NCBI GenBank assembly: GCA_040386515.1
Contig: JAZKFG010000005.1
Coordinates: 97,077-151,410 of the forward strand
Length of the DNA stretch: 54,334 nucleotides
Source of the DNA: Patescibacteria group bacterium
GTDB taxonomy: Bacteria; Patescibacteriota; Minisyncoccia; Phycocordibacterales; CAIZLB01
Direction: 5' to 3'
Made by a program: the position numbers and the translations under genes. Position 1 is the first letter of the stretch, and the number at the start of each line of letters is the position of its first letter. The notes below the pieces were generated by a model. That model was not told where the DNA came from. It saw only the letters and a list, made by a program, of their open reading frames with translations, and did no database searches. Below are positions 2,375 through 52,652 of this stretch, piece by piece.

Positions 2375-2416
2375 AAAAAAACCGGTATCGAAGAGTTTAA
2401 GGGTCTTCGATACCGG
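2375..2416 (-). terminator. Intrinsic terminator of small orphan unit
   Basis: Perfect 13-bp stem CCGGTATCGAAGA/TCTTCGATACCGG, U-tract on minus strand. Confidence 0.8.
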
Positions 2417-2433
2417 CGAGGATTGGTGATCCT

Positions 2434-2499
2434 CTATTTTGGGGTTGAGGTTCGGGTTTTTTTGGTTTTTGGTTTTGGTGTGTGCTTGCTAGACACCAT
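2434..2499 (-). CDS. Putative 21-aa basic peptide MVSSKHTPKPKTKKTRTSTPK (or sRNA)
   Basis: ATG-initiated ORF between a consensus promoter (2548-2575) and a terminator (2375-2416). Confidence 0.35.
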   Translation of the reverse strand: MVSSKHTPKPKTKKTRTSTPK

Positions 2500-2547
2500 C
2501 AACCAAAGGTTAGTCCAGATACCGACTTTCCTCTGATCAACCTATGT

Positions 2548-2575
2548 ATTATACCATTTCTATATTTTAAGTCAA
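2548..2575 (-). promoter_or_regulatory. Sigma70 promoter TTGACT-N16-TATAAT with extended -10 TG
   Basis: Minus strand ttgacttaaaatatagaaatggtataat. Confidence 0.75.
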
Positions 2576-2593
2576 GTACCCTACTTCCAAACT

Positions 2594-3286
2594 TTATCCC
2601 CTTTTCACCTTCACTCCAAAACTTTTTTCTTCATCACTCAAATGTTCTACTGCATATCTCCACATTGTCCTTGGCATTTCTTTATAATGAATTCTTAAAA
2701 ACTTTATTAATTCTTCTTTTGAACATCTTTTTCCAACTTCTCTAAGCATCCATCCAACTGCTTTATGCATAAGATCTTGTGTATCACCCATTAACAATTC
2801 AGCCAGTTTAAAAGTCATACTGCTATCACCTTTCATTATATATGCATGCGTTGCCACAATAGCAATTCTTCTTTCCCACATATTTTCCGACTTTGCTAAC
2901 TTAGTATAAAATCTCAAATCCGTATTCTTTATATATTCCCCTACTATTTCTCGAGCGCTTTGATCAACTAAGTCCCAATTATTTACATACTGAGTATTTC
3001 TCATAAACACATCAAATGCCTCTTTCTTATTTTTCCATTCAATCAAAAGAAATAGCGCTGCCAATCTAAACTCATGTTCTTTAGAGTGTAATAATTTTTC
3101 AATATCTTCTAACGATAAATCTGTATACCTCTTTACAGTCTTTCTTGTCTCCGGAACAGTAATACCGATAAATGTATCGTGTGCACTATATTGTCCAATG
3201 CCTGTTTTAAAAAATCTCTGTGAAGCAATAGCTTTTACAGGGGATGCATATGTTTGTAATTCTTTTTTGATAGCTGTAAGTGACAT
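2594..3286 (-). CDS. DNA alkylation repair protein (AlkD-like HEAT-repeat glycosylase)
   Basis: FFKTG.GQY...D.FIGI.VP, VNNWDLVD, WERRIAIVAT, HKAVGWMLREVGK; start at ATG 3286. Confidence 0.9.
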   Translation of the reverse strand: MSLTAIKKELQTYASPVKAIASQRFFKTGIGQYSAHDTFIGITVPETRKTVKRYTDLSLEDIEKLLHSKEHEFRLAALFLLIEWKNKKEAFDVFMRNTQYVNNWDLVDQSAREIVGEYIKNTDLRFYTKLAKSENMWERRIAIVATHAYIMKGDSSMTFKLAELLMGDTQDLMHKAVGWMLREVGKRCSKEELIKFLRIHYKEMPRTMWRYAVEHLSDEEKSFGVKVKRG

Positions 3287-3322
3287 TGCTCTAAGTATAG
3301 CAAATCGTATATACTTCAAAAC

Positions 3323-3964
3323 ATGTTAGCTATCATCTCAACCATATTAAGTATTGCCATTCTTGAGCTTATGCTCAGTGTGGACAATGCACTTGTTAAT
3401 GCTTCTCTCGCCGAAGAGCTTCCTCCAAAGCTTCAAAAGAAAGCTATTTATGCAGGTATTGGTATAGGGGCATTATTCCGAATCGTTTGTTTATTCTTGG
3501 CTTCTATTATTATTGAAAATCCAATTATTAAGATTATTGGAGGGCTTTATCTTATATGGCTTGCCTACGATCACTTCTTTCGAACAAAGAAAGATGATAA
3601 AGAATTAAAGAAGCATCCTCACTTCGGAAAAGTAATTGCCCAAATTGCAGCAGCAGATCTTGTATTTAGTATTGATAATGTTGTTGGTGCAATTGGCATA
3701 TCAAGCCATTTTTCATATGTAGTCTTTGGAGTGCTAGTTGGAATTATTACTATGCTTTTTGTGACACCTATTATGCTTACGCTTATGAGCAAGTTTCCAA
3801 CGCTTATAAAAACAGCATACGGAATTATTGCCTACGTAGGGATATCTATACTTATAGAAGCATCTACACATCACCATATTCCTGAGTTTGCTACATTTAT
3901 TTTTATTCTCGTTGCTGTACTTGCAACTGTTCGATACGACAGAAAGAGATTATCTTTTAAATAG
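3323..3964 (+). CDS. TerC-family integral membrane protein
   Basis: LELMLSVDNALV and ADLVFSIDNVVGA motifs, multiple TM helices. Confidence 0.88.
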   Translation: MLAIISTILSIAILELMLSVDNALVNASLAEELPPKLQKKAIYAGIGIGALFRIVCLFLASIIIENPIIKIIGGLYLIWLAYDHFFRTKKDDKELKKHPHFGKVIAQIAAADLVFSIDNVVGAIGISSHFSYVVFGVLVGIITMLFVTPIMLTLMSKFPTLIKTAYGIIAYVGISILIEASTHHHIPEFATFIFILVAVLATVRYDRKRLSFK

Positions 3965-4300
3965 TCGAGGGTTGTGCATCTTTTTGTACTGACCACTAAG
4001 AAGAATTATGAAAAGGATTGGGAGAATATAAGCTGGTACATTTTTATACCCAGTTGCAAGCCCCAGTATATCTACAAGAATTGTAATTAAAATATACAAT
4101 TCGAGTCCGCGCTTTTCCATACTCCACAACCATAGTGCTGAAATAAGATATGAAAAAGAAATTAATATTGTTGCCCATGAACTCCATGGAGCCGGATACA
4201 ACTGCGGTGAAGCTTGTACAATTCCAATAATAAAACCAACTGAACCTATAAAAATAAATAAACCAAGTATTGTAACAAGAGGAGAGCTTTTAACTTTCAT
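3950..4300 (-). CDS. Small 4-TM membrane protein, unknown function
   Basis: Hydrophobic 116-aa ORF with TATACT-N6-ATG start. Confidence 0.7.
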   Translation of the reverse strand: MKVKSSPLVTILGLFIFIGSVGFIIGIVQASPQLYPAPWSSWATILISFSYLISALWLWSMEKRGLELYILITILVDILGLATGYKNVPAYILPILFIILLSGQYKKMHNPRLFKR

Positions 4301-4324
4301 ACTGTAAGTATATTGCCAATGTCT

Positions 4325-6394
4325 TTATTTTTCAATAACAGCTCTTGTTTTTGGACCAAAAGTTCCAGAAGCAGGTACTATGTTGTTTTTCTTTTGAAAT
4401 TTCATGAGGGCGATTTGTGTGGCCTTTCCAAACAATGTTGTCTCCTTTCCTTTTGATCCTGGACCAGTACTAGCAACAGCATATCCATGCATGTTTAAAT
4501 ATTTTTGTAATAATTTTACATCTTCGCCGATTTTTCCAATCAATAAATCTCGGGTGAAATCGGTTTTTGTATTCTTTACTGGCGCTGGATTGGCCTGCAC
4601 AGGATGCAGTGTCGGTACAGGTACAACATAACTCGGATCAATCCCTGAACCTCCAGAAGATATACGCACTGTTGGATATACAATAGGAGGAAGAGTGTTT
4701 TGTATTGTAATTGTTATAGGAGCTGATGTTGCATAATTAACCGCATCATCTCGAGCTACTGCCTGAATTGTATGAGCACCGTCTGAAACCAAAGCTGTAT
4801 TCCAAATGATTGAATACGGTGCCGTTATATCTTCAGAACCAATCAATACATTTCCATCAAGCATGAATTGTATTCCGCTTACTCCTACATTGTCAGAAGA
4901 TGAAGCAGTAATCGTGATGCTTGATGATACAGTTCCATTATTCGTAGGCGAGGTAATTTCCACAACTGGCGCCAATATATCTGTTGATGAGCTGACTACT
5001 TGATTTATAAATATTTCTGCTGGCAAACGATATGTACTGCTGTCAGTTGGCATATTTACACCAACCCCTGCTGAACCTGAAGCCAGTGAAACGGTTGTTG
5101 CACCAACAGGCGTATTAGCAAGGGTTAGTTTAATTTGATTGCCAGTAATACGTGTCGATGAGGCAATTGTTGTAGTCCCATTGCTATCAGATACAGAAAA
5201 TCCGCCTGTTGTATTTATTGGAAGCAAAGGCAACGACTCGTCTGTAAATGTGAGTATGATTTGCTTGGCTGTTGTTCCCCATTTTGCCGAAACTAGCCGA
5301 GGACCTCTGCCGTCTGTTCCTCCATACATGCCCGCATCCATACTTGCCCAAAATCTATCTGCAAATATTTGAAGATCATCATTTGTTTTAAAATGTAAAT
5401 TGTCACCCCCATCATTGGCCAAGTTTACATCTGGATATGCAGCACCTCCAATTACATGTGAGTTATTATTCCAAGCATCGATTTGTGCCAAACGAATTGC
5501 ATCAGTAGATGTTGCAACATTGGCAGAATTTGCAATTTGCCCTACAACTGTTTTTACGCCAAAGTCAGTAAATATTGTATCTACCATGGTATTAAGATAT
5601 CCAAGATATGTTGCTCGAAGCATGTGATTTGCCACATCAGTTTCTCCTTGGAAAAATAATATTGCCTTAACTCCTCCGACAGCATTAATTCTTCTATACA
5701 TTGATCCATATAAAGTTGAAGTAGCGTAGGCTGGTTGCCATTCTGTAATAGAGGTTCCTCCTTTTGAACCCGTGACGAATGCAACAGGCACATTTGTCTT
5801 AGCCATAATTCGAGTTGCAACGAGTGGCCACAGAGACCCTGAAGCTGACACACCGTCACTTGATATACTATCTACTCTATTTACATTAGAATCTGTTGGA
5901 TCAATCAACTCTTTCCATTGATCATCATTTCCAAAAAGTGCAGCTTTCAAGGTTGGGTGCGTATATACTTGATTATTAAATCCACGACCACTAAAGTTGC
6001 TCTGTCCTGCAATAAAATACACATCTCCCACGCCAACATATGCAGTCGATGTTGAAATTGTTGTGTCATTTACAAAACGAACACTTAATAATCCTTGTCC
6101 TGTTGATTGGTTAGTCAATGAGCCAGAAAAAGTACCTCCTGTTGGGGAAGCTACAATAGTTGCATATGCCCCGTCGTTCCAACTTGCTTCGATGGCTGTC
6201 GGAGTCCCTGTATACGTACCTGAAATAGTAATTGTCGCTTTATTGAGATTATCCCGCTGAACAACCTGATATGACTTTGGGGTTGAAATAGTAATTATTT
6301 CCCCTGCTGCGACAACATTTTTAGACAAGAAAATCTGAGAGATGAGTGCTACATATAAAAATACGAATTGGAATTTATTGAACATGGATAGCAT
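4325..6394 (-). CDS. Secreted sialate O-acetylesterase (SASA/SGNH)-like protein with Ig-like and C-terminal peptidoglycan-binding domains
   Basis: Signal peptide; AGQSN, GGTSI..W, FFQGETD, D.LHF motifs; Big-type repeat (SDNVGVSGIQF..DG...EDITAPYS..WNT); C-terminal RDL..G..GEDV..LQ.YLN...FGPKTR; start 6394 or 6385. Confidence 0.8.
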   Translation of the reverse strand: MLSMFNKFQFVFLYVALISQIFLSKNVVAAGEIITISTPKSYQVVQRDNLNKATITISGTYTGTPTAIEASWNDGAYATIVASPTGGTFSGSLTNQSTGQGLLSVRFVNDTTISTSTAYVGVGDVYFIAGQSNFSGRGFNNQVYTHPTLKAALFGNDDQWKELIDPTDSNVNRVDSISSDGVSASGSLWPLVATRIMAKTNVPVAFVTGSKGGTSITEWQPAYATSTLYGSMYRRINAVGGVKAILFFQGETDVANHMLRATYLGYLNTMVDTIFTDFGVKTVVGQIANSANVATSTDAIRLAQIDAWNNNSHVIGGAAYPDVNLANDGGDNLHFKTNDDLQIFADRFWASMDAGMYGGTDGRGPRLVSAKWGTTAKQIILTFTDESLPLLPINTTGGFSVSDSNGTTTIASSTRITGNQIKLTLANTPVGATTVSLASGSAGVGVNMPTDSSTYRLPAEIFINQVVSSSTDILAPVVEITSPTNNGTVSSSITITASSSDNVGVSGIQFMLDGNVLIGSEDITAPYSIIWNTALVSDGAHTIQAVARDDAVNYATSAPITITIQNTLPPIVYPTVRISSGGSGIDPSYVVPVPTLHPVQANPAPVKNTKTDFTRDLLIGKIGEDVKLLQKYLNMHGYAVASTGPGSKGKETTLFGKATQIALMKFQKKNNIVPASGTFGPKTRAVIEK

Positions 6395-6582
6395 AACTAT
6401 AATATGTAGGAAAATAGTTAGCAAATTGATTATTTTCCAAGAAATGTTACAGTTCAAACGTGGAAATCAAAACTCTATAGAAAACCCTGACGCATATTTC
6501 GTGCACAATTAGGACGTAGAAATCTCCCACAAACACATACAAGAAAGCTAGAATTTTTACTAACATAAATATTACATCTTAT

Positions 6583-6747
6583 ATGTCAGACATTGACTAC
6601 AACAAATATCACGAGGATTCACTTAAGCACTGGAGAAGTTGGGGTTCTTGGTTTAGCTGGGGATCTGCTACAGGCTTGAGTATTTTCTTTATCAGTTTAG
6701 GAATCTTTATTGTACTGTTACGGTACGCTTGGATTCTTGGAAGATAG
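6583..6747 (+). CDS. Small single-TM protein, 54 aa (below ORF-track cutoff)
   Basis: MSDIDYNKYHEDSLKHWRSWGSWFSWGSATGLSIFFISLGIFIVLLRYAWILGR; followed by terminator 6752-6778. Confidence 0.65.
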   Translation: MSDIDYNKYHEDSLKHWRSWGSWFSWGSATGLSIFFISLGIFIVLLRYAWILGR

Positions 6748-6751
6748 ATTG

Positions 6752-6778
6752 AGAGACCACCTTAACGGGTGGTTTTTT
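6752..6778 (+). terminator. Intrinsic terminator
   Basis: ACCACC-ttaacg-GGTGGT followed by T-run. Confidence 0.7.
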
Positions 6779-6820
6779 AATTTGCTATACTTAATACATA
6801 TTAATTAATCAATACAACAT

Positions 6821-7243
6821 ATGTTACCAATCACTTTACTTTCAGTACTTTTAGCAGCTATTGCATCATTTATTTTAGGTTTTTTATTTCATGGACCAAT
6901 ATCAGGAAAGCTGTGGATGAAGCTTGCCAATATTGTACCAACTGGCAATGAGAAACTTGCAGACATGATTCCGCAAATGATTTGGAATTTTATTATAAAT
7001 TTATTTACTGCATACGGACTAGCTGTAGTGTATGTATTTGCCTCAACTTCAACTCTTACAAATGGAGGAGGAGTTGGAACTGGTATTATGTGTGGAATAT
7101 TAGTATGGGCAGGATTTCTTGCACCAGCTACATCAGTTGAAGTTATTTGGCTTAAGAGACCATTTAAACTTTGGCTATTTGAAGCCGTGTGTTCATTTAT
7201 TGTGATGATTGCAATGGGGGCTATTATTGGGTGGATGCTTTAG
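6821..7243 (+). CDS. DUF1761-like membrane protein
   Basis: VLLAAIASFILGFLFHGP..GKLWMKL N-terminus, 4 TM. Confidence 0.75.
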   Translation: MLPITLLSVLLAAIASFILGFLFHGPISGKLWMKLANIVPTGNEKLADMIPQMIWNFIINLFTAYGLAVVYVFASTSTLTNGGGVGTGIMCGILVWAGFLAPATSVEVIWLKRPFKLWLFEAVCSFIVMIAMGAIIGWML

Positions 7244-7279
7244 GAAATAAAAAAACACTGAGCTAACAGTCCATCACTG

Positions 7280-7341
7280 AAAATTACAAATGAAAAAATC
7301 TGCCGTCTATCACGAATGCAGATTTTTTCATTTGTAATTTT
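7280..7341. repeat. Perfect 24-bp inverted repeat with 14-nt loop between convergent genes
   Basis: AAAATTACAAATGAAAAAATCTGC (7280-7303) / GCAGATTTTTTCATTTGTAATTTT (7318-7341). Confidence 0.85.
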
Positions 7342-7350
7342 TCAATTAGA

Positions 7351-7746
7351 TTATTCTGCTCTGTGGCCGAATTCTTCGTCTTCAGTATCTGCGTCGGCGT
7401 CTGCTTTTGTTTCGTGTATTCTTCCATCAATATGGTTTGCTGGAGCATATACTGTCCAGATTTTCAAAGCAGATTCTCCAGTGTTAAGAATGTTGTGCTT
7501 TACTCCAGGTGCTACCACTACCACTGATCCTGCAGTGATCTCTGTCTCTTCTCCATCAAGAACAGCTTTTCCATTTCCACTTTCAATATATAATGTTTGC
7601 TCAACGTGAGGATGAGTCTCCTCTCCTATCTCCCCATCAACCGTTATATTCATAGTTACAAGCTGGCTTTTTGGTCCTGTATACAGAACAGTTCGGAAAT
7701 TTGTATTATCTTCAGTAATTTTTTTGATGTTGTGTATGTATGACAT
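7351..7746 (-). CDS. Cupin domain protein
   Basis: EIGEETHPHVEQ..YIESG, PGVKHNILNTG, TVYAPANH. Confidence 0.88.
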   Translation of the reverse strand: MSYIHNIKKITEDNTNFRTVLYTGPKSQLVTMNITVDGEIGEETHPHVEQTLYIESGNGKAVLDGEETEITAGSVVVVAPGVKHNILNTGESALKIWTVYAPANHIDGRIHETKADADADTEDEEFGHRAE

Positions 7747-7785
7747 ATTTTTAGTATATCAGATATATATTAAATCAATGTGAAG

Positions 7786-47179: not shown

Positions 47180-47182
47180 TGT

Positions 47183-47266
47183 TTGACTAATCCTATCAAT
47201 TTACCTATTATTAATCCCGGGTGGTAAGTCCAAGAAAAAATCGTCCTGCGGGACGGTTTTTATTTT
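47183..47266 (+). other. Empty cassette: promoter TTGACT-N17-TATTAT followed almost directly by a terminator (~45-nt transcript)
   Basis: Promoter 47183-47211; AAAATCGTCC-tgcg-GGACGGTTTT-TATTTT at 47237-47266; no ORF. Confidence 0.55.
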
Positions 47267-47357
47267 ATAAATTTCAATACAGATTTTATACTTTCTTACA
47301 ATTTAATTTAACCCTATTCATATAAACTATTCCCATGTCAGATGTTTGGTAGATTTC

Positions 47358-47433
47358 TGACATAGGCATGTTAATGGTTTAGCATCCTGGATTTACCACT
47401 CAAGATAAGCGAGTTCGATTCTCGTCATGTCCA
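47358..47433 (+). pseudogene. Degenerate tRNA-like element
   Basis: Good T arm GCGAG-TTCGATT-CTCGT, D arm ATGT-taatggttta-GCAT, mismatched acceptor TGACATA/CATGTCC, anticodon stem with one mismatch and 8-nt loop TTTACCAC. Confidence 0.55.
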
Positions 47434-47485
47434 TTATAATTTGATAATACCCACCCAATACTATATTATTGACTCTTAACTCAAT

Positions 47486-48142
47486 ATGCAGAAAATCATC
47501 ATCACCGGCAGTAAAGGAATAATAGGAACAATTCTCACACAAGGATTACAAGAAAGTTATGAAATCACAGGTTTAGATTTACCTGAAGCGGATCTAACTG
47601 AAATTCAAACTTTAATTAAAGTAGCTGAAGGAAAATCAGCTATCATTCATTTAGCCTGGGATACACATGCGGGAGACAATATAAACCTGCAAAATCATCG
47701 TATGTTCAAAAACGTGTATCAAGCAGCATTAGACTTTAATATCCCTCGAGTAATTATCGCCAGCTCTGTTCATGCTGATGGTTTCTTATCTCATGATGAA
47801 TCAAGATTATTGTCTCCAAACGAAGCACCTACTCCAAACAGTACGTACGGTGTTAATAAAATAGCCATGGAGACAATGGGAGAGTATTTTGCTGCCCAAG
47901 GTTTAGAAGTAGTGTGCATTCGCTTCGGTGGAGTTTCTCATAACAATGAACCACGACAAGGAGAAAAAGAAGGCCTTGTATTTCTAGATCAGAGAGATAC
48001 TGTTTCACTTATTAAAGCAATTCTGTCTGCAGAAGTTATTCCTAATAATTTTATAGTTCTCTACGCAGTATCTGATAATGCAGGAATAATACATGACATC
48101 AGCAACCCTTTTGGTTGGGTGCCGAAATATGGTCTTCGATAA
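47486..48142 (+). CDS. NAD-dependent epimerase/dehydratase (uronate dehydrogenase-like)
   Basis: ITGSKGIIG, IIHLA, IIASSVHA, YGVNK; promoter TTGATA-N17-TATTAT at 47441-47469. Confidence 0.85.
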   Translation: MQKIIITGSKGIIGTILTQGLQESYEITGLDLPEADLTEIQTLIKVAEGKSAIIHLAWDTHAGDNINLQNHRMFKNVYQAALDFNIPRVIIASSVHADGFLSHDESRLLSPNEAPTPNSTYGVNKIAMETMGEYFAAQGLEVVCIRFGGVSHNNEPRQGEKEGLVFLDQRDTVSLIKAILSAEVIPNNFIVLYAVSDNAGIIHDISNPFGWVPKYGLR

Positions 48143-48186
48143 ATAACTTCATAGAGATTTAATCTTCACAGGAGTATAATTAAACT

Positions 48187-48324
48187 ATGAAAAAACAACA
48201 AGCACCAATCAACAAAAGACAATTGGCACGAAAGTTGGATCACATAGTTATGCCTGCGCGATACGACGGGGTAACACGAAGTGCACGAACGATTGCACAA
48301 GTTAAAAAAGGTAAAGGTAAATAA
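48187..48324 (+). CDS. Small basic protein, 45 aa (below ORF-track cutoff)
   Basis: TATAAT-N6-ATG; MKKQQAPINKRQLARKLDHIVMPARYDGVTRSARTIAQVKKGKGK; terminator follows. Confidence 0.55.
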   Translation: MKKQQAPINKRQLARKLDHIVMPARYDGVTRSARTIAQVKKGKGK

Positions 48325-48326
48325 TT

Positions 48327-48350
48327 AAAAAACACCCGAGAGGGTGTTTT
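48327..48350. terminator. Bidirectional terminator (ACACCC-GAGA-GGGTGT)
   Basis: AAAAAACACCC-GAGA-GGGTGTTTT between convergent genes. Confidence 0.85.
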
Positions 48351-48355
48351 ACTAT

Positions 48356-49168
48356 TTATCTTCCTAATACTTCGACAATCTTTTCCAAAATATTATCAGG
48401 ATTCACCAATGCCTTCACAAGGAAATCTGCACCAAGTGCTGTAGCCTTTTTCTGATCCTCAACCTGACTAAAGTTTGATAGCACAATCACATGCATATCT
48501 TTTGTCTCAGGATCTTTTCGAATCACCTCAAGCACTTCAAATCCATTAATTCCTGGAAGCAACACATCAAGCAATACAAGATCAGGTTTTTGCTTTTTAA
48601 GTTCAGTTAGAGCGTCCTCCCCTGTTGCAGCGTATGCCACGTCTACATTTTTATCTCGCAGTCGAGTAGAAAGTATACTTCCAAGGAAGGTATCGTCTTC
48701 AACCAGGAGAAGTCTTTTGCCAATCAAGATATCAAAACTATCTGCAGTAACATCAACTGACAATTGATGCGATATTGCATCATGAGTAGCAGCAGGTGCT
48801 GTATCACCAAGAATCAATCTCACTTTATCAATAATACTCTGTGTAGTAATATCAGACTTAATCATAAAGTCTACAATTCCCATTTGTTTAATATCAGCAA
48901 TGCTTGCAGGATTCAAAGAGTTAGAAAGTGCAAGAACTGGAATATTTGTGATGGCAGGGTTTTCTTTTTTCTGATGAAGAACTTCAATACCATTTACAAT
49001 TGGCAAGAATACATCAAGCAAAATCAAATCTGGCAGCATTTCGCAAATACACGTATACCCTTTTGCTCCGTCGCGAACTAGTTCTGTTTGATATCCGGCT
49101 GTCTGCAATTTTTGAACAAGCACATCTCCAAGAACAAGATCGTCTTCAATAATAAGAATTTTTTTCAT
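48356..49168 (-). CDS. Response regulator with two receiver domains and no output domain
   Basis: ILIIEDD..PDLILLD..LSN..IKS and LLLVEDD..PDLVLLD..LSN..VKA. Confidence 0.9.
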   Translation of the reverse strand: MKKILIIEDDLVLGDVLVQKLQTAGYQTELVRDGAKGYTCICEMLPDLILLDVFLPIVNGIEVLHQKKENPAITNIPVLALSNSLNPASIADIKQMGIVDFMIKSDITTQSIIDKVRLILGDTAPAATHDAISHQLSVDVTADSFDILIGKRLLLVEDDTFLGSILSTRLRDKNVDVAYAATGEDALTELKKQKPDLVLLDVLLPGINGFEVLEVIRKDPETKDMHVIVLSNFSQVEDQKKATALGADFLVKALVNPDNILEKIVEVLGR

Positions 49169-49183
49169 AGTATACAGTATATT

Positions 49184-50023
49184 TTATACATTAGACTCTA
49201 TCGGTGCTACTGGCAGTGTCACAAAAAATGTTGTACCACTTCCCTCAGCACTCTCAAACCATATTTTTCCTCCATGTCGTTCAACAACCTCCTTGGCAAT
49301 AAAGAGGCCGAGGCCAGATCCAACCGTGTCTACTCGAATAGCATTTCCAGCTCGGAAGAATTTTGTAAATATATGAATCTTTTGTGAATCTGGAATTCCT
49401 ATTCCTGAATCTGTGAAAGACATTTGAACAGAATCACCTTCAATACGCGCTGAGATTTTCACTGTCCCGCCTATGGTTGTATATTTAATAGCGTTTTCTA
49501 TGAGGTTTTGAAATACACCCCGAAGCTTTACTGCATCACCTCGAATACGTATAACTGGCGATAAATCCATTTCCAATGAAATCTTTCGAGCATCAACAAG
49601 CGCCTGCAACTCTGCAGCAACAGCTTTGACACTTTCTGTGACATCAACTTGATCAAACAACACTTGATATTTACCTGATTGAATATGATCTACCTCGAGC
49701 AAATCATTTACAAGGGCAATGAGCCGATCAGTACTGTCTGATGCTTTTTTAATAAAGTTCTTACGATCAAATTCATCACGAAATTCATCATGCAAAAGCA
49801 TGTGCATAATCCACTTAATAGCTGAAAGTGGTGTTCGAAGCTGGTGAGCAGCAATAGAGATAAATTCTGACTTTCGAATATCGAGAGCCTTAAGCTGTTC
49901 ATTCGCTCTGGTTAGAGCAAGATCTCGACGAATAAGAAGCTTAGCAGACTCGTGCTGTTCTGAAAGCACATTTTTAAGTTGTGCTTCGAGTTCTTCAACT
50001 TTTTTCTGTAAATCTGGATTCAT
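49184..50023 (-). CDS. Soluble histidine kinase (HisKA + HATPase), no sensor domain
   Basis: AAHQLRTPL, NLIENAIKYT, DSGIGIP, GSGLGL, GSGTTF. Confidence 0.92.
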   Translation of the reverse strand: MNPDLQKKVEELEAQLKNVLSEQHESAKLLIRRDLALTRANEQLKALDIRKSEFISIAAHQLRTPLSAIKWIMHMLLHDEFRDEFDRKNFIKKASDSTDRLIALVNDLLEVDHIQSGKYQVLFDQVDVTESVKAVAAELQALVDARKISLEMDLSPVIRIRGDAVKLRGVFQNLIENAIKYTTIGGTVKISARIEGDSVQMSFTDSGIGIPDSQKIHIFTKFFRAGNAIRVDTVGSGLGLFIAKEVVERHGGKIWFESAEGSGTTFFVTLPVAPIESNV

Positions 50024-50042
50024 ATAATATGTATGTTACGGA

Positions 50043-51239
50043 TTATGCCAGCGCTGCAATCACCACTGTTTCATTATGGAAAGCAGAATTACATTTTTCA
50101 ATATTCTTAACTTCACCATTCATTGGAGCCTGCTCGCCATATGTATAGAAGCCAATAAGCGGAACTTCTCTACCTAACACTTCTTGAATAGCTGAGATTT
50201 CCTCTCCTGATCGCTGGCCAAAAAGCTTATTTCGTCCAATACAGTTAAAGATAATAATTGCTTGTGGTAACTTCCCGTCAAGCTGTTCAAGAGCATTTTG
50301 CGCAGCGAGCTTTGCCACCTTGATTGCTTCTTCAACACTACCAATCATAAGGCGAATATCAGATCCTTCTGGAAGCTCAGCAGCACATGTGATTGAACCA
50401 TTTGCATCAACAGAAAGCGGGTCACGAATAAGAAGTTCATCACTTCCCTCAACTCGAAGTCCGATCGGATATGTAATAGCAAGTTTTGCCAATGTCTCAG
50501 TCTTAAGAGCAGCCGCTTCTTCCGCACCAAAATAATCTTCATATATTTTAATAGCAGGCTTTCCATCTACCTCATGCAACACTCCACCCTCTGACTTTGT
50601 TACTTTCATTGGCGCTCCAACTGGAATCCATCCGTGCTTTACTCCAATACCTATTTTAAAATCACCACTAAGCCCCAGTCCTACAACACTATCTGTATGT
50701 ACTGTGTCATTTAAATACTGATATGTCTTTTTAAATTGAAAATCATCTCCTGATGCACCGCCCACAACTGGAAAATGGTCACCAAGTGATTCAAGAACTC
50801 CTCGCACTGTGTCTGCCCCATTTCCATTCAACACATCTGGAAACATAAGAAAAGATTTAAGAGCATCACCTGCTTGGGCTTTAATAATATCTGCAACACT
50901 TTTTCCTGCCTCATGTGGACCTTTTGAAACTGGTGTTGCTGACACTGCTGCATAAAACTTAATGTCAGGTGCAGACATAACCATAACTACAATTGAGTTT
51001 CTATCTGTTGGACCAGCTGTACTTATTTCCCCAGCTGTTGATGAACCTACGAGAAGAGCATCACCACTGACTGAGCGAATACCTTTGAGCATTTCTTCTT
51101 GGGCATATTTTGATGAGGCAAACACAATTACTGCATCTGGCTTATTCCCAAGTCTATTAATAGCATCCTGGCATGCTGATGCTCCTGCTAAAAATGAATC
51201 TTCTCCATACCCTACTCCAACAGATGATCGTAATGACAT
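50043..51239 (-). CDS. FIST-domain (NosP-like) sensory protein
   Basis: VGSSTAGEI, PVVGGASGD, HGW.P.G, E.DGKPA, FNCIGR, GFYTYGEQ, FHNETVV. Confidence 0.92.
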   Translation of the reverse strand: MSLRSSVGVGYGEDSFLAGASACQDAINRLGNKPDAVIVFASSKYAQEEMLKGIRSVSGDALLVGSSTAGEISTAGPTDRNSIVVMVMSAPDIKFYAAVSATPVSKGPHEAGKSVADIIKAQAGDALKSFLMFPDVLNGNGADTVRGVLESLGDHFPVVGGASGDDFQFKKTYQYLNDTVHTDSVVGLGLSGDFKIGIGVKHGWIPVGAPMKVTKSEGGVLHEVDGKPAIKIYEDYFGAEEAAALKTETLAKLAITYPIGLRVEGSDELLIRDPLSVDANGSITCAAELPEGSDIRLMIGSVEEAIKVAKLAAQNALEQLDGKLPQAIIIFNCIGRNKLFGQRSGEEISAIQEVLGREVPLIGFYTYGEQAPMNGEVKNIEKCNSAFHNETVVIAALA

Positions 51240-51374
51240 AAGTTTTATTTTATTTACTGTTAATATGGGTTTAGTATATCAAATTAAGGTAGCATACACA
51301 TGCGATTGACAAAAAAATAATAAAAGCTACTCTTATTCGAGGACAACTTACCAACCTGAACGAACTTACCTTTT

Positions 51375-52067
51375 ATGAAAAATAAGAAAACCGCCTTTAT
51401 CACCGGCGCTAACCGCGGACTTGGCCTTGGATTTGTTCAAGTTTTACTTGAGCGGAACTATACTGTTTTTGGCGGAACCAGAGAAATCTCCGATTCCCTC
51501 TTGGAGCACCCCAATCTTCATTGGCTGGAGTGTGATGTAACCAAGAATCCATCCATTCGCTGCGCCTTTGCAACGATTCAAGAACAAGTCGGCTCACTTT
51601 CACTGCTTATCAACAATGCAGGAATTAAGAGTAACTTGGTTAAAAAATCTGGGGAATTATTGAACCTTAACAAGGACAGTTTCCTAAATATCCTTGATAT
51701 CAATCTGGTCAGTCCAGCAATGGTCATTAAAATTATGTCACCGCTTCTAATCGAAGATCCGAGTTACATAATACAAGTTTCAAGCGCTCGAGCCTCACAC
51801 TTTAAAACACCACAAAAAACAGAGGTGGATATTGGGTATGATACGAGTAAAGCAGCATTACTCATGCTTACAGCCTGTTGTGTTTCTGAATTACCTACCG
51901 CCAGAATTATGTCAGTAAACCCTGGCGCTGTGAAAACAGACATGAATCCTAATGGAAAGAATAGCCCCAGGGATAGGGCGGAAGAAATTATTCTTTTAAC
52001 CGAAAACTGGCAGCCTGAATATCAAGGTGGTTTCGTAAAACACGACGGAGGTTTACACCCGCTTTAA
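51375..52067 (+). CDS. Short-chain dehydrogenase/reductase
   Basis: ITGANRGLG, INNAG, VSS, YDTSKAA, VNPGAVKTDM; promoter TTGACA-N16-TACTCT at 51306. Confidence 0.88.
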   Translation: MKNKKTAFITGANRGLGLGFVQVLLERNYTVFGGTREISDSLLEHPNLHWLECDVTKNPSIRCAFATIQEQVGSLSLLINNAGIKSNLVKKSGELLNLNKDSFLNILDINLVSPAMVIKIMSPLLIEDPSYIIQVSSARASHFKTPQKTEVDIGYDTSKAALLMLTACCVSELPTARIMSVNPGAVKTDMNPNGKNSPRDRAEEIILLTENWQPEYQGGFVKHDGGLHPL

Positions 52068-52125
52068 GCCCTTATTACATGAGGAAGTCCTGAAAGACTT
52101 TACATCTTGTAAGGGCTTTTCTCAT
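52068..52125 (+). terminator. Conserved terminator motif, copy C
   Basis: ATGAGGAAGTCCT-gaaaGACTTTACATCTTGTa-AGGGCTTTTCTCAT. Confidence 0.7.
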
Positions 52126-52171
52126 TGACTTATATGGCAAATGTTATACCATGACGCTTAGCACTTTTTAT

Positions 52172-52227
52172 GTTTGAGTAAGGGAATGTATGTCCAACAT
52201 ATAGGATACTCATTTCCCTACTCAAAC
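52172..52227 (+). other. Long bulged hairpin in the 5' leader of an orphan ORF
   Basis: GTTTGAGTA/TACTCAAAC, GGGAATG/CATTTCCC, inner TCC/GGA; downstream of TTGACT-N16-TACCAT (52125-52152). Confidence 0.6.
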
Positions 52228-52241
52228 CACCTATCTCACTT

Positions 52242-52571
52242 ATGAATATATTCTTCAGTTTTAAAGACATACTAATTCAGAACTTGATAACCATGCAGTT
52301 TGCTCTTGATGGTTACTCTGCCACCAAACTATTTAAGGAGTCAGATATTCTCATTACCAACGACGTTGAACTTGCCAAAGCAGACCATGGCAATAGAACA
52401 GTTATTCTGTTACGCATGCCTGATTCTCCTGAAATGACAATCCCTAGCGTGAACAACGTCAATTTCCATTTTATTGATGTTGAAGGCAAAGGCTTCAACG
52501 CCTTTGTCGAAGCTCGACAGATCTTGGATGTCAGGTTTAAAAGAACACAAGAAGCCACTGCACCTGTCTGA
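52242..52571 (+). CDS. Orphan protein in cassette
   Basis: 109-aa ORF followed by terminator ATGCACC...GGTGCAT-TTTT (52598-52632). Confidence 0.6.
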   Translation: MNIFFSFKDILIQNLITMQFALDGYSATKLFKESDILITNDVELAKADHGNRTVILLRMPDSPEMTIPSVNNVNFHFIDVEGKGFNAFVEARQILDVRFKRTQEATAPV

Positions 52572-52652
52572 CAAACCCTGCGAGTTCAACTCTCGCAATG
52601 CACCACCCCCGCGGTCGGTGCATTTTTATTTTCATGCTAAAATGAAATCATC

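What the first reader, a model, noticed from the sequence alone, without database searches (positions are those of the whole stretch)
2375..52632. Two gene-expression grammars: leaderless native genes versus ~15 self-contained foreign-style cassettes
Seen: many core genes have a -10 box, often with extended TG, only 6-7 nt before ATG (starts 3286, 3323, 4300, 7746, 8392, 10997, 11951, 14454, 16384, 16464, 25593, 29661, 32795, 36339, 39494, 44230, 54275), implying leaderless mRNA, and end in short ACACCC/GGGTGT-type hairpins. A second class (2375-2575, 18770-20874 x3, 29835-30090, 36363-36754, 36766-37619, 43413-44208, 45162-47266 x4, 51306-52125, 52125-52632) mostly has TTGAC/TTGC-N16-17--10 promoters, 25-120-nt A/C-rich leaders without a Shine-Dalgarno (e.g. 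caacaatccaccactctgacttATG), visibly more C-ending codons, long bulged GC terminators and mostly orphan ORFs. Inference: a portable cassette class with shared design. It may be acquired from, or built for expression in, another cell type such as the host; the PEP-CTERM member points to an exosortase-bearing diderm. Codon bias was judged by eye.
Basis: partly seen in the sequence, partly recalled or inferred. Interest (0 to 1): 0.78.

Follow-up and report, generated by a model that had tools for sequence, protein, structure and literature searches.

The report
Leaderless core genes, GC-rich stand-alone cassettes
This tiny Patescibacteria genome starts most of its own genes directly at the promoter with no mRNA leader or ribosome-binding site, while about one gene in twenty is a GC-richer, fast-changing, stand-alone unit with its own promoter, leader and terminator that looks like swappable accessory cargo of this bacterial group, not genes made for a host cell.

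Summary
A -10 box ends 6-7 nt before the ATG in 35% of genes, against 1-3% at internal ATGs. No Shine-Dalgarno signal exists, and the 16S rRNA of four same-genus genomes lacks the CCUCC anti-SD.

GC3 is a continuum with a heavy tail, not two modes, but expression architecture switches sharply above GC3 0.38 (45 genes). Only 6-8% of these are leaderless, 75% are leadered, and 72-77% have a strong GC-rich terminator. They have more TTGACA-type -35 boxes, C-rich leaders, mostly no Pfam family, and they cluster.

The host or diderm interpretation is not supported. The cassette relatives that carry a name or taxon are mostly Patescibacteria. The PEP-CTERM family occurs only in this genus and family, always GC3-rich, and no exosortase was found. 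Cassettes occupy variable slots where flanking proteins are 80-97% identical and cassette proteins 28-54%. One array follows tmRNA, separated by genus-specific repeat modules.

Best reading: moron-like accessory units of a Patescibacteria-internal flexible gene pool.

This scan has noted the same pattern in at least 15 other Patescibacteria genomes, there with SD-led cassettes. I found no paper describing it.

One claim fails: the ACACCC/GGGTGT "native terminator" has only 5 copies genome-wide.

The parts
3286..54275 (.). Leaderless native genes. Each has a -10 box 6-7 nt before the ATG.
   Evidence: 15 of 17 have TANNNT at 6-7 nt; 10997 has CATAAT and 44230 has TATAAA.
18770..19470 (+). Cassette 1 of 3 tandem paralogues. 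ORF 18827-19399, 190 aa, with a signal peptide, a GQLRFNS motif and a C-terminal TM segment plus basic tail. GC3 is 0.41, and it has its own promoter region and a terminator of dG -25.6.
19471..20180 (+). Cassette 2. ORF 19517/19520-20110, 197 aa, GC3 0.40, terminator dG -20.4. The PEP motif is lost.
20181..20874 (+). Cassette 3. Promoter TTGCTT-17-TGgTATAAT, a leader of about 50 nt rich in A and C, and ORF 20256-20807 (183 aa, GC3 0.45). The ORF ends in VPEP-TM-RRKR, a PEP-CTERM-like tail, and is followed by a GC-rich terminator.
   Evidence: PF07589 E=0.096, 13.3 bits, below the 20.7-bit cut-off
36363..36754 (-). Cassette with ORF 36438-36680/36737 (80-99 aa), a small membrane protein with a C-terminal TM segment plus KKKV. 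GC3 is 0.38 and the terminator dG is -16.3.
36766..37619 (-). Two-gene unit. The promoter TTGACT-17-TATAGT (with TG) lies at 37619-37591 and the leader is about 60 nt. The ORFs are 37221-37523 (100 aa, GC3 0.57) and 36838-37203 (121 aa, GC3 0.48), both with a signal peptide and a C-terminal TM anchor. A terminator lies near 36770-36800. The unit is absent from the same slot in G005.
43413..44208 (+). Cassette with promoter TTGACT-17-CATTAT (43413-43441), ORF 43488-44147 (219 aa, GC3 0.34) and a terminator. Homologues of 25-29% identity lie in the ftsH-smpB interval of G006 (GC3 0.46) and G005 (GC3 0.62).
44751..45160 (+). tmRNA gene (ssrA). Its 3' end and the promoter just downstream are duplicated in degenerate form at 45765-45827.
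45162..45712 (+). tmRNA-array cassette 1. Promoter TTGACA-17-TATAAT (12 of 12), a leader of about 71 nt, and ORF 45268-45645 (125 aa, receiver-domain-like, GC3 0.57).
   Evidence: Response_reg 28.3 bits, below the 30.2-bit cut-off; one other protein in 5.8 billion, 59% identical
45713..46540 (+). Junction unit u1 (tail motif GGTTCGATAAAATCCCTATCCTGTCCAC followed by TTGACA) and cassette 2. The cassette is ORF 45893-46474 (193 aa orphan, GC3 0.33) with an hp terminator at 46493-46540.
   Evidence: 0 of 60 relatives
46521..47116 (+). Junction unit u2 (hp, linker, tail) and cassette 3. The cassette has promoter TTGACA-17-TATACT (46660-46688), ORF 46806-47045 (79 aa, GC3 0.52) and an hp terminator at 47069-47116.
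47099..47266 (+). Junction unit u3 (tail) followed by an empty unit: promoter-like TTGACT-17-TATTAT (47183-47211) and a terminator (47236-47261) with no ORF between them.
51306..52131 (+). Cassette with ORF 51375-52067 (230 aa short-chain dehydrogenase, GC3 0.40). An hp-type terminator lies at 52084-52131.
52125..52632 (+). Cassette with promoter TTGACT-16-TACCAT (52125-52152), a leader of about 83 nt containing CCACC, ORF 52242-52571 (109 aa orphan, GC3 0.42) and a terminator.
2375..2575 (-). Promoter (TTGACT-17-TATAAT), a transcript of about 170 nt, and a terminator hairpin (CCGGTATCGAAGA..TCTTCGATACCGG followed by a T run). There is no ORF longer than about 21 codons on this strand, so it is a possible small RNA or micropeptide unit.
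   Evidence: Read. Rfam has no match at E up to 0.5. No DNA match in 17 genus genomes among the matches listed; 46 further matches were not listed.
29790..30095 (+). Unit with a terminator. The 69-codon ORF 29834-30043 (GC3 0.32) has no family and a doubtful coding character.
35404..36339 (-). Tyrosine recombinase with native codon usage and a leaderless start. It is one of only two such genes in the genome and is probably the Xer-type housekeeping enzyme. It abuts the 36363-37619 cassettes.

Best explanation
The organism is a member of the Patescibacteria with an assembly of about 0.8 Mb. It expresses its resident genes mainly as leaderless mRNAs. An extended -10 promoter with almost no -35 box places the transcription start at or next to the ATG. 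Operon-internal genes and the remaining leadered genes have no Shine-Dalgarno site, which fits a 16S rRNA that, in the genus, has lost the CCUCC anti-SD.

Scattered among the resident genes, and clustered in a few variable slots including the region after tmRNA, are about 45-60 accessory units. Each is an autonomous transcription unit with a sigma70-type promoter (more often with a TTGACA -35 box), a 35-90-nt leader rich in C and A and poor in G, one or occasionally two GC3- and C3-rich ORFs that are usually orphans, and a strong GC-rich intrinsic terminator.

I read these as 'moron-like' units of a flexible gene pool internal to Patescibacteria.
- Some are old residents of hypervariable slots whose alleles diverge or are swapped far faster than their flanks.
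- Some are left behind by integrative elements.
- A minority are imports from SD-using organisms.

Carrying its own promoter, leader and terminator makes a unit expressible and insulated wherever it lands. A leaderless gene, by contrast, needs a promoter positioned to the base.

SHOWN: the motif statistics, the composition, the terminators, the indel and hypervariability pattern, and the taxonomic restriction of relatives.
INFERRED: the actual transcription starts, translation of the SD-less leaders, the mode of transfer, and the reason for the persistent GC-richness.
For: LEADERLESS GRAMMAR. 335 of 855 genes are leaderless, which is 54% of 619 first-in-unit genes.

NO SD. The 16S 3' end reads ...GGATTTATTCAAGT in 4 of 4 same-genus loci fetched.

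ARCHITECTURE SWITCH above GC3 0.38. Terminators. -35 boxes, leaders and C-rich composition. Orphan status: 26 of 36 without a Pfam family against 5 of 40.

CLUSTERING AND POSITION: 10 adjacent pairs of GC3-rich genes against 2.4 expected, with a maximum of 9 in 2000 shuffles. 14 of 45 lie within 5 kb of a contig end against 96 of 757 (p=0.003).

SAME CONTRAST IN OTHER GENUS GENOMES: in loci from nine other genus genomes, 3 of 28 GC3-rich ORFs are leaderless against 27 of 55 (p=6e-4). The median terminator dG is -18.1 against -6.1 (the loci were a biased sample).

VARIABLE SLOTS.

RELATIVES ARE PATESCIBACTERIAL OR LINEAGE-RESTRICTED AND EQUALLY GC3-RICH: the PEP-CTERM family has GC3 0.38-0.71 beside neighbours at 0.19-0.32, and sits at different loci.

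MOBILE-ELEMENT LINK:
- A same-genus genome (G007) has an island of GC3 0.33-0.67 with a large serine integrase (phrog_95, E=4e-53) abutting its tmRNA.
- A GC3-0.48 tyrosine integrase lies at the end of contig C10.
- The tmRNA 3' end plus its downstream promoter is duplicated after the first cassette, with alignment score 45 against a shuffle maximum of 30 in 2000 shuffles.

FOREIGN SUBSET: SD-like motifs occur in 4 of 45 GC3-rich genes against 10 of 757 (p=0.006).

CONCEPTUAL FIT: passages of the GeneMarkS-2 paper read (PMC6028130) describe 'group C' leaderless genomes and 'atypical' genes.
Against: - GC3 is a continuum, not a separate mode. Class membership near GC3 0.34-0.38 is therefore arbitrary.
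- No donor and no transfer event was seen directly.
- Several cassettes sit at the same slot in several species: the c43488 family between ftsH and smpB, and PEP-CTERM genes after typA or after the dCMP-deaminase gene. That fits vertical descent with fast evolution as well as it fits swapping.
- If these genes are vertically inherited, GC3 of 0.5-0.7 has persisted in a 37% GC lineage whose core genes are only about 75% identical at the DNA level. Plain import followed by amelioration does not explain that.
- GC3-rich genes are not enriched near tRNA or tmRNA genes (12 of 45 against 155 of 757 within 3 kb, p=0.34).
- Many native-looking genes of the window also lack DNA-level matches in the genus, so absence of a DNA match does not mark cassettes specifically.
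- The PHROGs library recognises almost none of the cassette proteins.
- Gene calls, start sites, promoters and terminators come from my own simple predictors.
Confidence: 0.6

Rival explanations
1. The cassettes are vertically inherited, fast-evolving lineage-specific genes with no transfer involved. They include several secreted or membrane-anchored proteins. Some local process keeps up their high GC3 and C3: GC-biased gene conversion at recombination hot spots, or selection on the mRNA.
For: - Same-slot homologues occur in several species with conserved flanks.
- GC3 stays high, at 0.38-0.71, across the genus.
- The families are restricted to the genus or family.
- Earlier notes of this scan reached 'old residents' for similar genes (leads only).
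Against: - The same family sits at different loci in different species: after typA, after the dCMP-deaminase gene, or after DUF892.
- Some slots are empty in one species and filled in another.
- The arrays after tmRNA in G000 and G006 share their junction repeats but none of the window's cassette proteins has a homologue there.
- A 47-nt hp terminator is 98% identical between two species whose core genes are 71-79% identical.
- Integrases carry the same composition.
- Four genes carry SD sites that appear useless here.
Confidence: 0.2
2. A dedicated, integron-like cassette system exists. The hp-linker-tail junction modules would be recombination sites at which single-gene units are captured and exchanged next to ssrA, perhaps by the neighbouring tyrosine recombinase.
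For: - Three junction units in one orientation separate single-ORF units after tmRNA.
- G006 has the same kind of array with different genes.
- The tail motif occurs 1-3 times in 5 of 61 genomes and 0 times as a reversed control.
- hp occurs in 5 of 61 genomes from two genera.
- A soil-metagenome contig joins an hp directly to a tail, with unlike sequence on either side.
- A recombinase gene lies 8.4 kb upstream, in conserved synteny.
Against: - Each cassette has its own promoter, unlike integron cassettes.
- No GTTRRRY/RYYYAAC core sequences are seen in hp or tail (read).
- The recombinase has native composition and is one of only two in the genome, so it is probably Xer.
- hp folds as an ordinary terminator followed by a U run.
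- Most GC3-rich units elsewhere in the genome lack both modules.
- Copy numbers are tiny.
Confidence: 0.1
3. One reading: the cassettes were acquired from a host that is a diderm with an exosortase, or are designed to be expressed or processed in such a host.
For: - PEP-CTERM-type tails are present in genomes where no exosortase was found: 0 of 1 for PF09721 and 0 of 41 over the cut-off for TIGR04178.
- The promoters match the general sigma70 consensus.
- Four GC3-rich genes have SD sites.
Against: - Among the cassette relatives that carry a name or taxon, the closest and commonest are Patescibacteria.
- The PEP-CTERM family was found only in this genus and family, with 7 proteins in 5.8 billion.
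- 41 of 45 GC3-rich genes lack an SD site, as expected for genes adapted to a ribosome without an anti-SD.
- The surface-type cassette proteins have ordinary signal peptides and membrane anchors suited to the cell's own envelope.
- No transfer or injection apparatus is linked to them.
Confidence: 0.04
4. The pattern is an artefact. The GC-rich pieces would be assembly or binning chimeras, or non-coding DNA mistaken for genes.
For: - GC3-rich genes are enriched near contig ends.
- The source is a MAG of 13 contigs.
Against: - 31 of 45 lie more than 5 kb from a contig end, and those inspected in the window and on contig C9 sit between native genes.
- Contamination is estimated at 0.3%.
- Independent contigs of one run cover the smpB-tmRNA-cassette junctions without a break (record 1 spans 43400-45853). 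That run may be the source sample.
- Homologous ORFs with the same features occur in other genomes.
- 10 of 36 have Pfam families.
Confidence: 0.02

Closest known systems
GeneMarkS-2 'group C' genomes, meaning bacteria with frequent leaderless transcription such as Actinobacteria and Deinococcus-Thermus (Lomsadze et al. 2018, PMC6028130; passages read)
   Same: A Pribnow box lies 6-8 nt before the start of first genes in operons. A large share of transcription units is leaderless. A minority of 'atypical' genes has deviating composition.
   Different: - In group C the remaining genes use SD sites. Here there are none, and the genus 16S lacks the anti-SD.
- The leaderless share, 54% of first-in-unit genes and up to about 63% with near-misses, is at or above the 25-50% that the paper gives for bacteria.
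- The atypical genes here are GC-richer than the genome, whereas the paper says atypical genes are frequently GC-poorer.
- In the passages I read, the paper's group C counts named only Actinobacteria, Deinococcus-Thermus, Proteobacteria and Firmicutes. I did not see its supplementary tables.
Phage 'morons': autonomous promoter-ORF-terminator units inserted between conserved prophage genes. The concept of Juhala, Hendrix and colleagues is recalled from memory. Earlier notes of this scan use the same comparison.
   Same: Units of one ORF, or occasionally two, with their own promoter and factor-independent terminator. Their composition differs from that of their neighbours, they sit between conserved genes, and they are present or absent between relatives.
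   Different: - Here they sit in a cellular chromosome between housekeeping genes, not in a prophage.
- PHROGs recognises almost none of them.
- Some have stayed in one slot across species.
Genomic islands integrated at the 3' end of ssrA (tmRNA). This is general knowledge, recalled from memory.
   Same: - Accessory genes lie directly after tmRNA.
- A degenerate direct repeat of the tmRNA 3' end lies after the first cassette.
- A same-genus genome has an island carrying a serine integrase at the same site.
   Different: - No integrase lies in the array of this genome.
- The units are only 0.55-0.8 kb, with one gene each.
- The three tail copies share derived features, such as an ATAAAAT insertion in the T-loop-like part, that the functional tmRNA end lacks. 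They are therefore not simply serially displaced tmRNA ends.
Integron gene cassettes and attC sites
   Same: A co-oriented array of single-gene units separated by structured repeats. Gene content is variable between relatives.
   Different: - The cassettes carry their own promoters.
- The repeats lack the attC core sequences.
- No IntI-type integrase with attI and Pc is adjacent.
- See the membership test.
PEP-CTERM/exosortase protein sorting (Haft et al. 2006, PMC1569441; seen only in the search listing)
   Same: The C-terminal motif VPEP, a hydrophobic helix and an Arg-rich end occur in the family to which ORFs 18827, 19520 and 20256 belong.
   Different: - No exosortase was found in this genome or in 40 relatives.
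- Two of the three window paralogues have lost the PEP motif.
- Patescibacteria are generally described as lacking an outer membrane (recalled, not tested here).

Membership tests
Leaderless-type genome (GeneMarkS-2 group C) | A -10 (Pribnow) box localised 6-8 nt upstream of the start codon of first genes in operons | tested here: met
   23% at 6 nt and 12% at 7 nt, against 1-3% at internal ATGs.
Leaderless-type genome (GeneMarkS-2 group C) | A substantial share of operons is leaderless (25-50% in bacteria according to the paper) | tested here: met
   335 leaderless of 619 first-in-unit genes (54%). Prediction only, with no TSS data.
Leaderless-type genome (GeneMarkS-2 group C) | Other genes (operon-internal and leadered) use an SD-type RBS | tested here: not met
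   no SD tetramer exceeds 0.8% at any offset; the anti-SD is absent from the 16S of 4 of 4 genus genomes fetched; no substitute motif was found.
Moron-like autonomous gene unit | Own promoter directly upstream | tested here: inconclusive
   Consensus matches are present. The overall count of promoter-like sites in 36000-54334 is not above shuffles (57 against 49.9 +/- 7.3). Enrichment of good -35 boxes is 13 of 36 against 24 of 140. No TSS data exist.
Moron-like autonomous gene unit | Own factor-independent terminator | tested here: met
   72-77% against 21-36%; 29 of 36 against 38 of 140 (p=9e-9).
Moron-like autonomous gene unit | Composition differs from the flanking genes | tested here: met
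   median GC3 0.42 against 0.26, and C3 0.22 against 0.10.
Moron-like autonomous gene unit | Located inside a prophage between conserved phage genes | tested here: not met
   The flanks are housekeeping genes such as ftsH, smpB, macB and the DUF892 gene. PHROGs hits are nearly absent.
Integron cassette array | An IntI-type tyrosine recombinase adjacent to the array, with attI and Pc | tested here: not met
   The nearest recombinase (35404-36339) lies 8.4 kb away on the far side of ftsH and an ABC operon. It is one of only two in the genome. The IntI-specific insertion was not examined.
Integron cassette array | attC sites with RYYYAAC...GTTRRRY cores and a bulged hairpin | tested here: not met
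   The hp and tail sequences contain no such cores. hp folds as a terminator-like hairpin. No attC covariance model was available.
Integron cassette array | Cassettes are promoterless and co-oriented | tested here: not met
   They are co-oriented, but each has a strong promoter match: 45162, 45796, 46660 and 47183.
PEP-CTERM/exosortase system | C-terminal PEP-CTERM domain (PF07589 / TIGR02595) | tested here: inconclusive
   5 of 11 family members match at E of 0.1 or better, with a best E of 3e-4. The window's ORF 20256 scores 13.3 bits, below the 20.7-bit cut-off. The motif is visible by eye in 9 of 11 members.
PEP-CTERM/exosortase system | An exosortase (EpsH/XrtA family) in the same genome | tested here: not met
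   PF09721 gives 0 matches in this genome, which is 92.7% complete. TIGR04178 gives 0 of 41 genomes over the cut-off. The weak hit examined (G003) lies in a histidine kinase.
ssrA-targeted genomic island | Direct repeat of the tmRNA 3' end at the distal border | tested here: met
   unit u1 aligns with the tmRNA 3' end plus the downstream promoter, scoring 45 against shuffles of mean 16.6 and maximum 30. Units u2 and u3 are not significant on their own.
ssrA-targeted genomic island | An integrase gene inside the island next to ssrA | tested here: not met
   There is none in 45162-47266. One is present in G007.

The most novel reading that the evidence does not exclude
Patescibacteria of this clade, and on this scan's earlier notes many others, may run a genuine two-tier genome. 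The first tier is a leaderless, SD-free core translated by a ribosome that has lost its anti-SD. The second is an actively maintained layer of insulated, GC-rich, leadered one-gene units held in fixed 'slots' and exchanged between lineages by a dedicated mechanism. The conserved hp terminator and the tmRNA-like tail modules would be its recombination or capture sites. This would be a new kind of cassette platform supplying, among other genes, variable surface proteins, including PEP-CTERM-tailed proteins sorted without an exosortase. The persistent GC-richness would be a by-product of that exchange, for example GC-biased gene conversion, or a requirement for leader-dependent translation.
Probability: 0.12. 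Interest if true: 0.75.

Novelty: new variant of a known kind. Interest (0 to 1): 0.45.

Why it matters
1. GENE FINDING AND START-SITE ANNOTATION. Prediction in Patescibacteria MAGs is usually done with SD-based models. A lineage that is more than half leaderless, has no SD sites and has a 16S without an anti-SD will be mis-annotated at many starts. Its GC-rich accessory genes scored poorly under the native dicodon model: my native-trained caller missed ORFs 20256-20807 and 43488-44147.

2. WHERE TO LOOK FOR HOST-INTERACTION GENES. The GC-rich, terminator-insulated units mark the fast-turnover accessory layer. Several in the window are secreted or membrane-anchored proteins. This is where strain-specific factors of these episymbionts are most likely to be found.

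3. AN EVOLUTIONARY PUZZLE. GC3 of 0.4-0.7 persists in homologous cassettes across a 37% GC genus, so either exchange or biased conversion is at work.

4. TRANSLATION INITIATION. Leadered mRNAs without an SD site, in an organism without an anti-SD, give a natural test bed for SD-independent initiation.

I found no paper on any of this in the held library. The searches were: leaderless with Patescibacteria or candidate phyla radiation; Shine-Dalgarno with Patescibacteria; and at least two of PEP-CTERM, exosortase and Parcubacteria.

Tried and rejected
- The search for related loci on the PEP-CTERM family alignments failed because no stretch was conserved enough. I used the search for homologous proteins instead.
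- RSCU principal components: PC1 tracks the native dicodon score (r = -0.68), not GC3 (r = 0.26). It was of no use for separating the classes.
- The exact hp pattern gave 0 hits in JGI metagenome contigs. The tail pattern gave 2 short contigs that added little.
- RNA evidence: no RNA holder was listed for 43400-47400. Only contigs could be laid. They show tmRNA-like pieces and hp/tail pieces in a soil and a wastewater data set, but no transcription starts.
- Own 16S: there is none in the assembly, so the anti-SD statement rests on four same-genus genomes.
- Donor of the SD-bearing ABC transporter on contig C9: 150 best representatives were listed, but the clusters of the 10 I looked up carry no organism names. 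The question stays open.
- Weak exosortase-model hits in G003 and G011: the G003 hit examined lies in a histidine kinase. Both were rejected.
- A leader motif complementary to the altered 16S tail: counts equal those of a reversed control. Rejected.
- Association of GC3-rich genes with tRNA or tmRNA genes genome-wide: not significant.
- DNA-level conservation as a discriminator: many native-looking genes also lack blastn matches in the genus, so I did not use it as a cassette criterion and did not run the middle third of the window.
- Rfam at E up to 0.5 finds no family in any cassette.

Full report
SETTING

The window is G000:C5:97077-151410 of an 803,847-bp assembly in 13 contigs. GC is about 37%. 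Completeness is 92.7% and contamination 0.3%. Table 11 fits: only 10 of 281 long ORFs end in TGA. Earlier notes of this scan and the named relatives of its proteins place the organism in Patescibacteria (Parcubacteria).

No gene finder was available, so I trained a dicodon log-odds caller on ORFs of 300 codons or more. It gave 855 genes covering 89.5% of the genome. All statistics below rest on these calls and on simple motif rules. They are predictions, not measurements.

THE LEADERLESS GRAMMAR IS REAL AND GENOME-WIDE

The other two have one-off variants: CATAAT at 10997 and TATAAA at 44230.

- Across 840 genes, TANNNT ends 6 nt before the first ATG in 23% and 7 nt before it in 12%. Other offsets give 2-10%. 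At 3449 internal in-frame ATGs the values are 1% and 3%.
- The 291 aligned promoters have an extended -10 (TGn at 62% and 57%) and hardly any -35 box. Only 4% of 323 leaderless promoters match TTGACA in 5 of 6 positions or better, against a background of 1.8%.
- With a permissive start rule, 335 genes are leaderless, 223 are operon-internal, 284 are 'leadered/other' and 13 are at contig edges. Of the leadered group that could be scored, 57 have a predicted leader under 5 nt and are probably leaderless too.

There is no Shine-Dalgarno signal. GGAG, GAGG, AGGA and AAGG never exceed 0.8% at any offset from 0 to 29.

The assembly has no 16S gene. In four of four same-genus genomes whose 16S I fetched, the full-length match ends ...GTTCGTGGATTTATTCAAGT. 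From memory, E. coli has GGATCACCTCCTTA at that place, so the CCUCC anti-SD is gone. No leader motif complementary to the new tail is enriched over a reversed control.

The genome has an S1-like protein of 380 aa and four sigma-70-family genes.

This pattern is the known 'group C' type of GeneMarkS-2 (passages of PMC6028130), but without the SD sites that group C genomes use for their other genes.

The 'ACACCC/GGGTGT-type' native terminator is not a grammar. CACCC-N3-7-GGGTG occurs 5 times in the genome. Three near-identical AAAACACCC..GGGTGTTTT hairpins lie in this window (family D14).

THE SECOND CLASS

- Three tandem paralogues lie at 18.8-20.9 kb.
- One single-gene unit and one two-gene unit lie on the minus strand at 36.4-37.6 kb.
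- One unit lies at 43.4-44.2 kb.
- Four units follow tmRNA.
- Two units lie at 51.3-52.6 kb.

Three of the fifteen have no credible ORF: 2375-2575, which is a minus-strand promoter, a 170-nt transcript and a terminator; 29835-30090; and 47183-47261.

Genome-wide, GC3 is unimodal (median 0.26) with a heavy right tail. The observed standard deviation is 0.059 against a binomial 0.028. A two-component mixture is preferred, but its components overlap (means 0.25 and 0.31).

Expression architecture, however, switches sharply. For genes of at least 60 codons:

| GC3 bin | Genes | Leaderless | Leadered | Terminator (dG -8 or better) |
|---|---|---|---|---|
| Five bins up to 0.38 | 757 | 36-52% | 21-43% | 21-36% |
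| 0.38-0.44 | 32 | 6% | 75% | 72% |
| above 0.44 | 13 | 8% | 77% | 77% |

- Terminators of GC3-rich genes are stronger (median -18.6 against -12.8 kcal/mol, p=8e-10) and GC-richer (0.61 against 0.42, p=4e-12).
- Their best promoter matches have a good -35 box in 13 of 36, against 24 of 140 leadered native genes (p=0.02).
- Predicted leaders have a median of 65 nt, and none is under 5 nt.
- The last 30 nt before the ATG are A 34%, C 28%, G 13% and T 25%. In leadered native genes C is 17%.
- CACC/ACCA/CCAC words peak at -11 to -20, at 18-20% of genes per 5-nt bin against 3-6%.
- C3 is doubled, and GC1 and GC2 are slightly raised.
- 26 of 36 have no Pfam family, against 5 of 40 native window genes.
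- They cluster: 10 adjacent pairs against 2.4 expected.
- They lie near contig ends more often (14 of 45 against 96 of 757), but not near tRNA genes.

The same contrast appears in loci from nine other genomes of the genus. There, 3 of 28 GC3-rich ORFs are leaderless against 27 of 55 others. Those loci were chosen around cassettes and tmRNA, so the sample is biased.

WHAT THE CASSETTES ARE

The three paralogues at 18.8-20.9 kb belong to a small family with a signal peptide, a conserved GSLRFNS motif and a C-terminal PEP-CTERM-type tail of VPEP, a helix and RRRR. PF07589 is matched by 5 of 11 members at E of 0.1 or better.

- The family was found in 7 of 17 same-genus genomes, 1 of 19 genomes of other genera of the family, and 0 of 24 other families of the order.
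- Only 7 proteins among 5.8 billion match it, two of them the window's own.
- In every genome it is GC3-rich (0.38-0.71) beside neighbours at 0.19-0.32.
- It sits at different places: after typA, after a dCMP-deaminase gene, and here after a DUF892 gene.
- No exosortase was found in this genome or over the cut-off in 41 genomes. The weak hit examined (G003) is a histidine kinase.

Other cassettes:

- ORF 43488-44147 has homologues of 25-29% identity in the ftsH-smpB interval of G006 and G005, with GC3 0.46 and 0.62.
- The SDR (51375-52067) has a 91%-identical copy on a 1-kb metagenome contig. Otherwise its relatives are 44-49% identical, and the closest two that are named are Parcubacteria and Gottesmanbacteria.
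- The receiver-like ORF 45268-45645 has one other relative in the database.
- ORF 45893-46474 has no relative in 60 related genomes. Its nearest atlas clusters are unnamed and commonest in Minisyncoccota (leads only).

VARIABLE SLOTS

In blastn against 17 genus genomes, the recombinase, ftsH, smpB and tmRNA match at 71-82% identity, but no cassette does. G005 has 66 nt between the recombinase gene and ftsH where this genome has 1.3 kb. It has 12 nt between macB and smpB where this genome has 813 nt.

Where cassettes share a slot between species, flanking proteins are 80-97% identical and cassette proteins 28-54%.

Many native-looking genes also lack DNA matches, so I do not use absence of a DNA match as a criterion.

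THE tmRNA ARRAY

After tmRNA (44751-45160) the four units are separated by three copies of a roughly 130-nt junction. It consists of a hairpin ('hp', AAAGYCCTCACnGACTTYACATCTTGTGRGGGCTTTT), an AT-rich linker and a 'tail' (GGTTCGATAAAATYCCYACCCTGTCCAC) that abuts the next -35 box. hp folds well (z = -5.5) and is followed by a U run, so it is a terminator.

- The first tail, together with the promoter behind it, aligns with the tmRNA 3' end and its downstream promoter. The score is 45 against a shuffle mean of 16.6 and a maximum of 30 in 2000 shuffles. The other two tails are not significant alone. All tails share derived features that the functional tmRNA end lacks.
- The tail motif occurs in 5 of 61 related genomes, 1-3 copies each, with a reversed control of 0. 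It occurs on 2 records among 185,579 species genomes and on 2 metagenome contigs.
- G006 has the same kind of array downstream of its tmRNA, but none of the window's cassette proteins has a homologue there.
- G007 has an 8.5-kb island of GC3 0.33-0.67, with a large serine integrase abutting its tmRNA and an hp plus tail at the far end.
- hp occurs in 5 of 61 genomes from two genera, again after GC3-rich ORFs.
- One 47-nt hp is 98% identical between G000 and a different locus of G006.
- An hp copy also ends the SDR cassette at 52084.

'Shared design' is therefore literally true for a subset of cassettes. Most GC3-rich units elsewhere in the genome have neither module.

ORIGIN

Nothing points to a diderm host.

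- The cassette relatives that carry a name or taxon are mostly Patescibacteria.
- 41 of 45 GC3-rich genes have no SD-like motif. That suits a ribosome without an anti-SD, and argues that most have long lived in this kind of cell.
- Four do have SD-like motifs (4 of 45 against 10 of 757, p=0.006). Three of these are textbook sites on contig C9, at an ABC transporter, a basic 180-aa protein and an acyltransferase-linked gene. They look like imports from SD-using organisms. I could not name a donor.
- A GC3-0.48 tyrosine integrase lies at the end of contig C10.

VERDICT

The host-directed interpretation is not supported.

The best reading is a leaderless, SD-free core plus a moron-like, insulated accessory layer drawn from a flexible gene pool internal to Patescibacteria. 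Part of that layer is long resident in hypervariable slots, and part is linked to integrative elements at ssrA.

Two points remain unexplained:
- why homologous cassettes keep GC3 of 0.4-0.7 across a 37% GC genus;
- what processes PEP-CTERM tails without an exosortase.

This scan has recorded the same 'leaderless core plus GC-rich self-contained cassettes' in at least 15 other Patescibacteria genomes, where the cassettes are SD-led (unchecked notes). The present genome is the SD-less variant.

In the held library I found no paper describing leaderless expression, SD usage or such cassettes in Patescibacteria.
- 'leaderless' with 'Patescibacteria' gave 2 papers, and with 'candidate phyla radiation' 5. 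I read matching passages of three (PMC12641178, PMC12641261, PMC6851277); the others I saw only as listings. None is on this subject.
- 'Shine-Dalgarno' with 'Patescibacteria' gave 3 papers, seen only as listings.
- The supplementary tables of the GeneMarkS-2 paper, which list genomes by group, were not examined and could contain CPR genomes.

Noticed in passing
L056-L059 (16S rRNA loci of four same-genus genomes): The 16S rRNA 3' end reads ...GTTCGTGGATTTATTCAAGT, so the CCUCC anti-Shine-Dalgarno sequence is absent in all four. The window's own assembly has no 16S gene.
   Followed up: partly
window 46493-46540, 47069-47116, 52084-52131; L046, L049, L050, L053: A roughly 50-nt terminator hairpin with a conserved loop (GACTTYACATCTTGTG) follows unrelated GC3-rich ORFs in 5 of 61 genomes from two genera. 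One copy is 98% identical between two species whose core genes are 71-79% identical.
   Followed up: partly
window 17258-17400 (minus strand, downstream of tRNA-Ser 17405-17493): The last 21 nt or so of tRNA-Ser (TTCGAATCCCTCCGTCTCCGC) are repeated about 110 nt downstream, like an integration scar. The stretch 17260-17400 matches many places (75-91% identity) in every genome of the genus, so it is a multi-copy element or tRNA-related repeat.
   Followed up: no
window 47395-47432: A fragment resembling a tRNA 3' end (GCGAGTTCGATTCTCGTCATGTCCA) lies just before the promoter of the epimerase gene at 47486. ARAGORN and Rfam do not call it.
   Followed up: no
window 2375-2575 (minus strand): A promoter (TTGACT-17-TATAAT), a transcript of about 170 nt and a strong terminator, with only a 21-codon Lys/Pro/Thr-rich ORF. 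It may be a small RNA or a micropeptide. There is no Rfam match and no DNA match in the genus among the matches listed.
   Followed up: partly
window 21730-25593 and 25801-29661 (minus strand): Two neighbouring genes of about 1287 aa encode surface proteins with fn3, GDSL or laminin-G, and PG-binding domains. Their 3' (C-terminal) DNA modules are 86-90% identical (families D1 and D3) around different cores.
   Followed up: no
G000:C3:3972-4943 (L020): A second PEP-CTERM-like protein in this genome: 323 aa, GC3 0.56, with a pAdhesive_15 (ice-binding-like adhesin) domain and a tail ...VPETGSSSLLALSLGALMLRRKR. Again there is no exosortase in the genome.
   Followed up: no
G000:C9:9691-11589, 16832-17374, 27981-28592 (L021, L039): Three GC3-rich genes carry textbook Shine-Dalgarno sites (GGAGG or AAGGAGG at 5-9 nt) in a genome that otherwise has none. 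They are probably imports from SD-using bacteria. The donor was not identified.
   Followed up: partly
leaders of GC3-rich genes genome-wide, e.g. window 20225-20255 and 52215-52241: CCACC/ACCACC-type words are concentrated 11-20 nt before the ATG of GC3-rich genes (18-20% per 5-nt bin against 3-6% in native leadered genes). This may be a non-SD initiation element, or only a result of C/A richness.
   Followed up: partly
window 39593-43403 compared with L014 and L015: The native-looking hlyD-ABC-macB operon lies upstream of the c43488 cassette here. It lies downstream of the homologous cassette in G005, and it is missing between ftsH and smpB in G006. The whole ftsH-smpB interval is therefore a rearrangement hot spot.
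   Followed up: partly
L016:10581-12185 (G007): A large serine integrase gene reads into the 3' end of the tmRNA gene on the opposite strand. It marks an integrated element of about 8.5 kb with GC3 0.33-0.67 in a host whose neighbouring native-looking ORFs have GC3 of about 0.22-0.37.
   Followed up: partly
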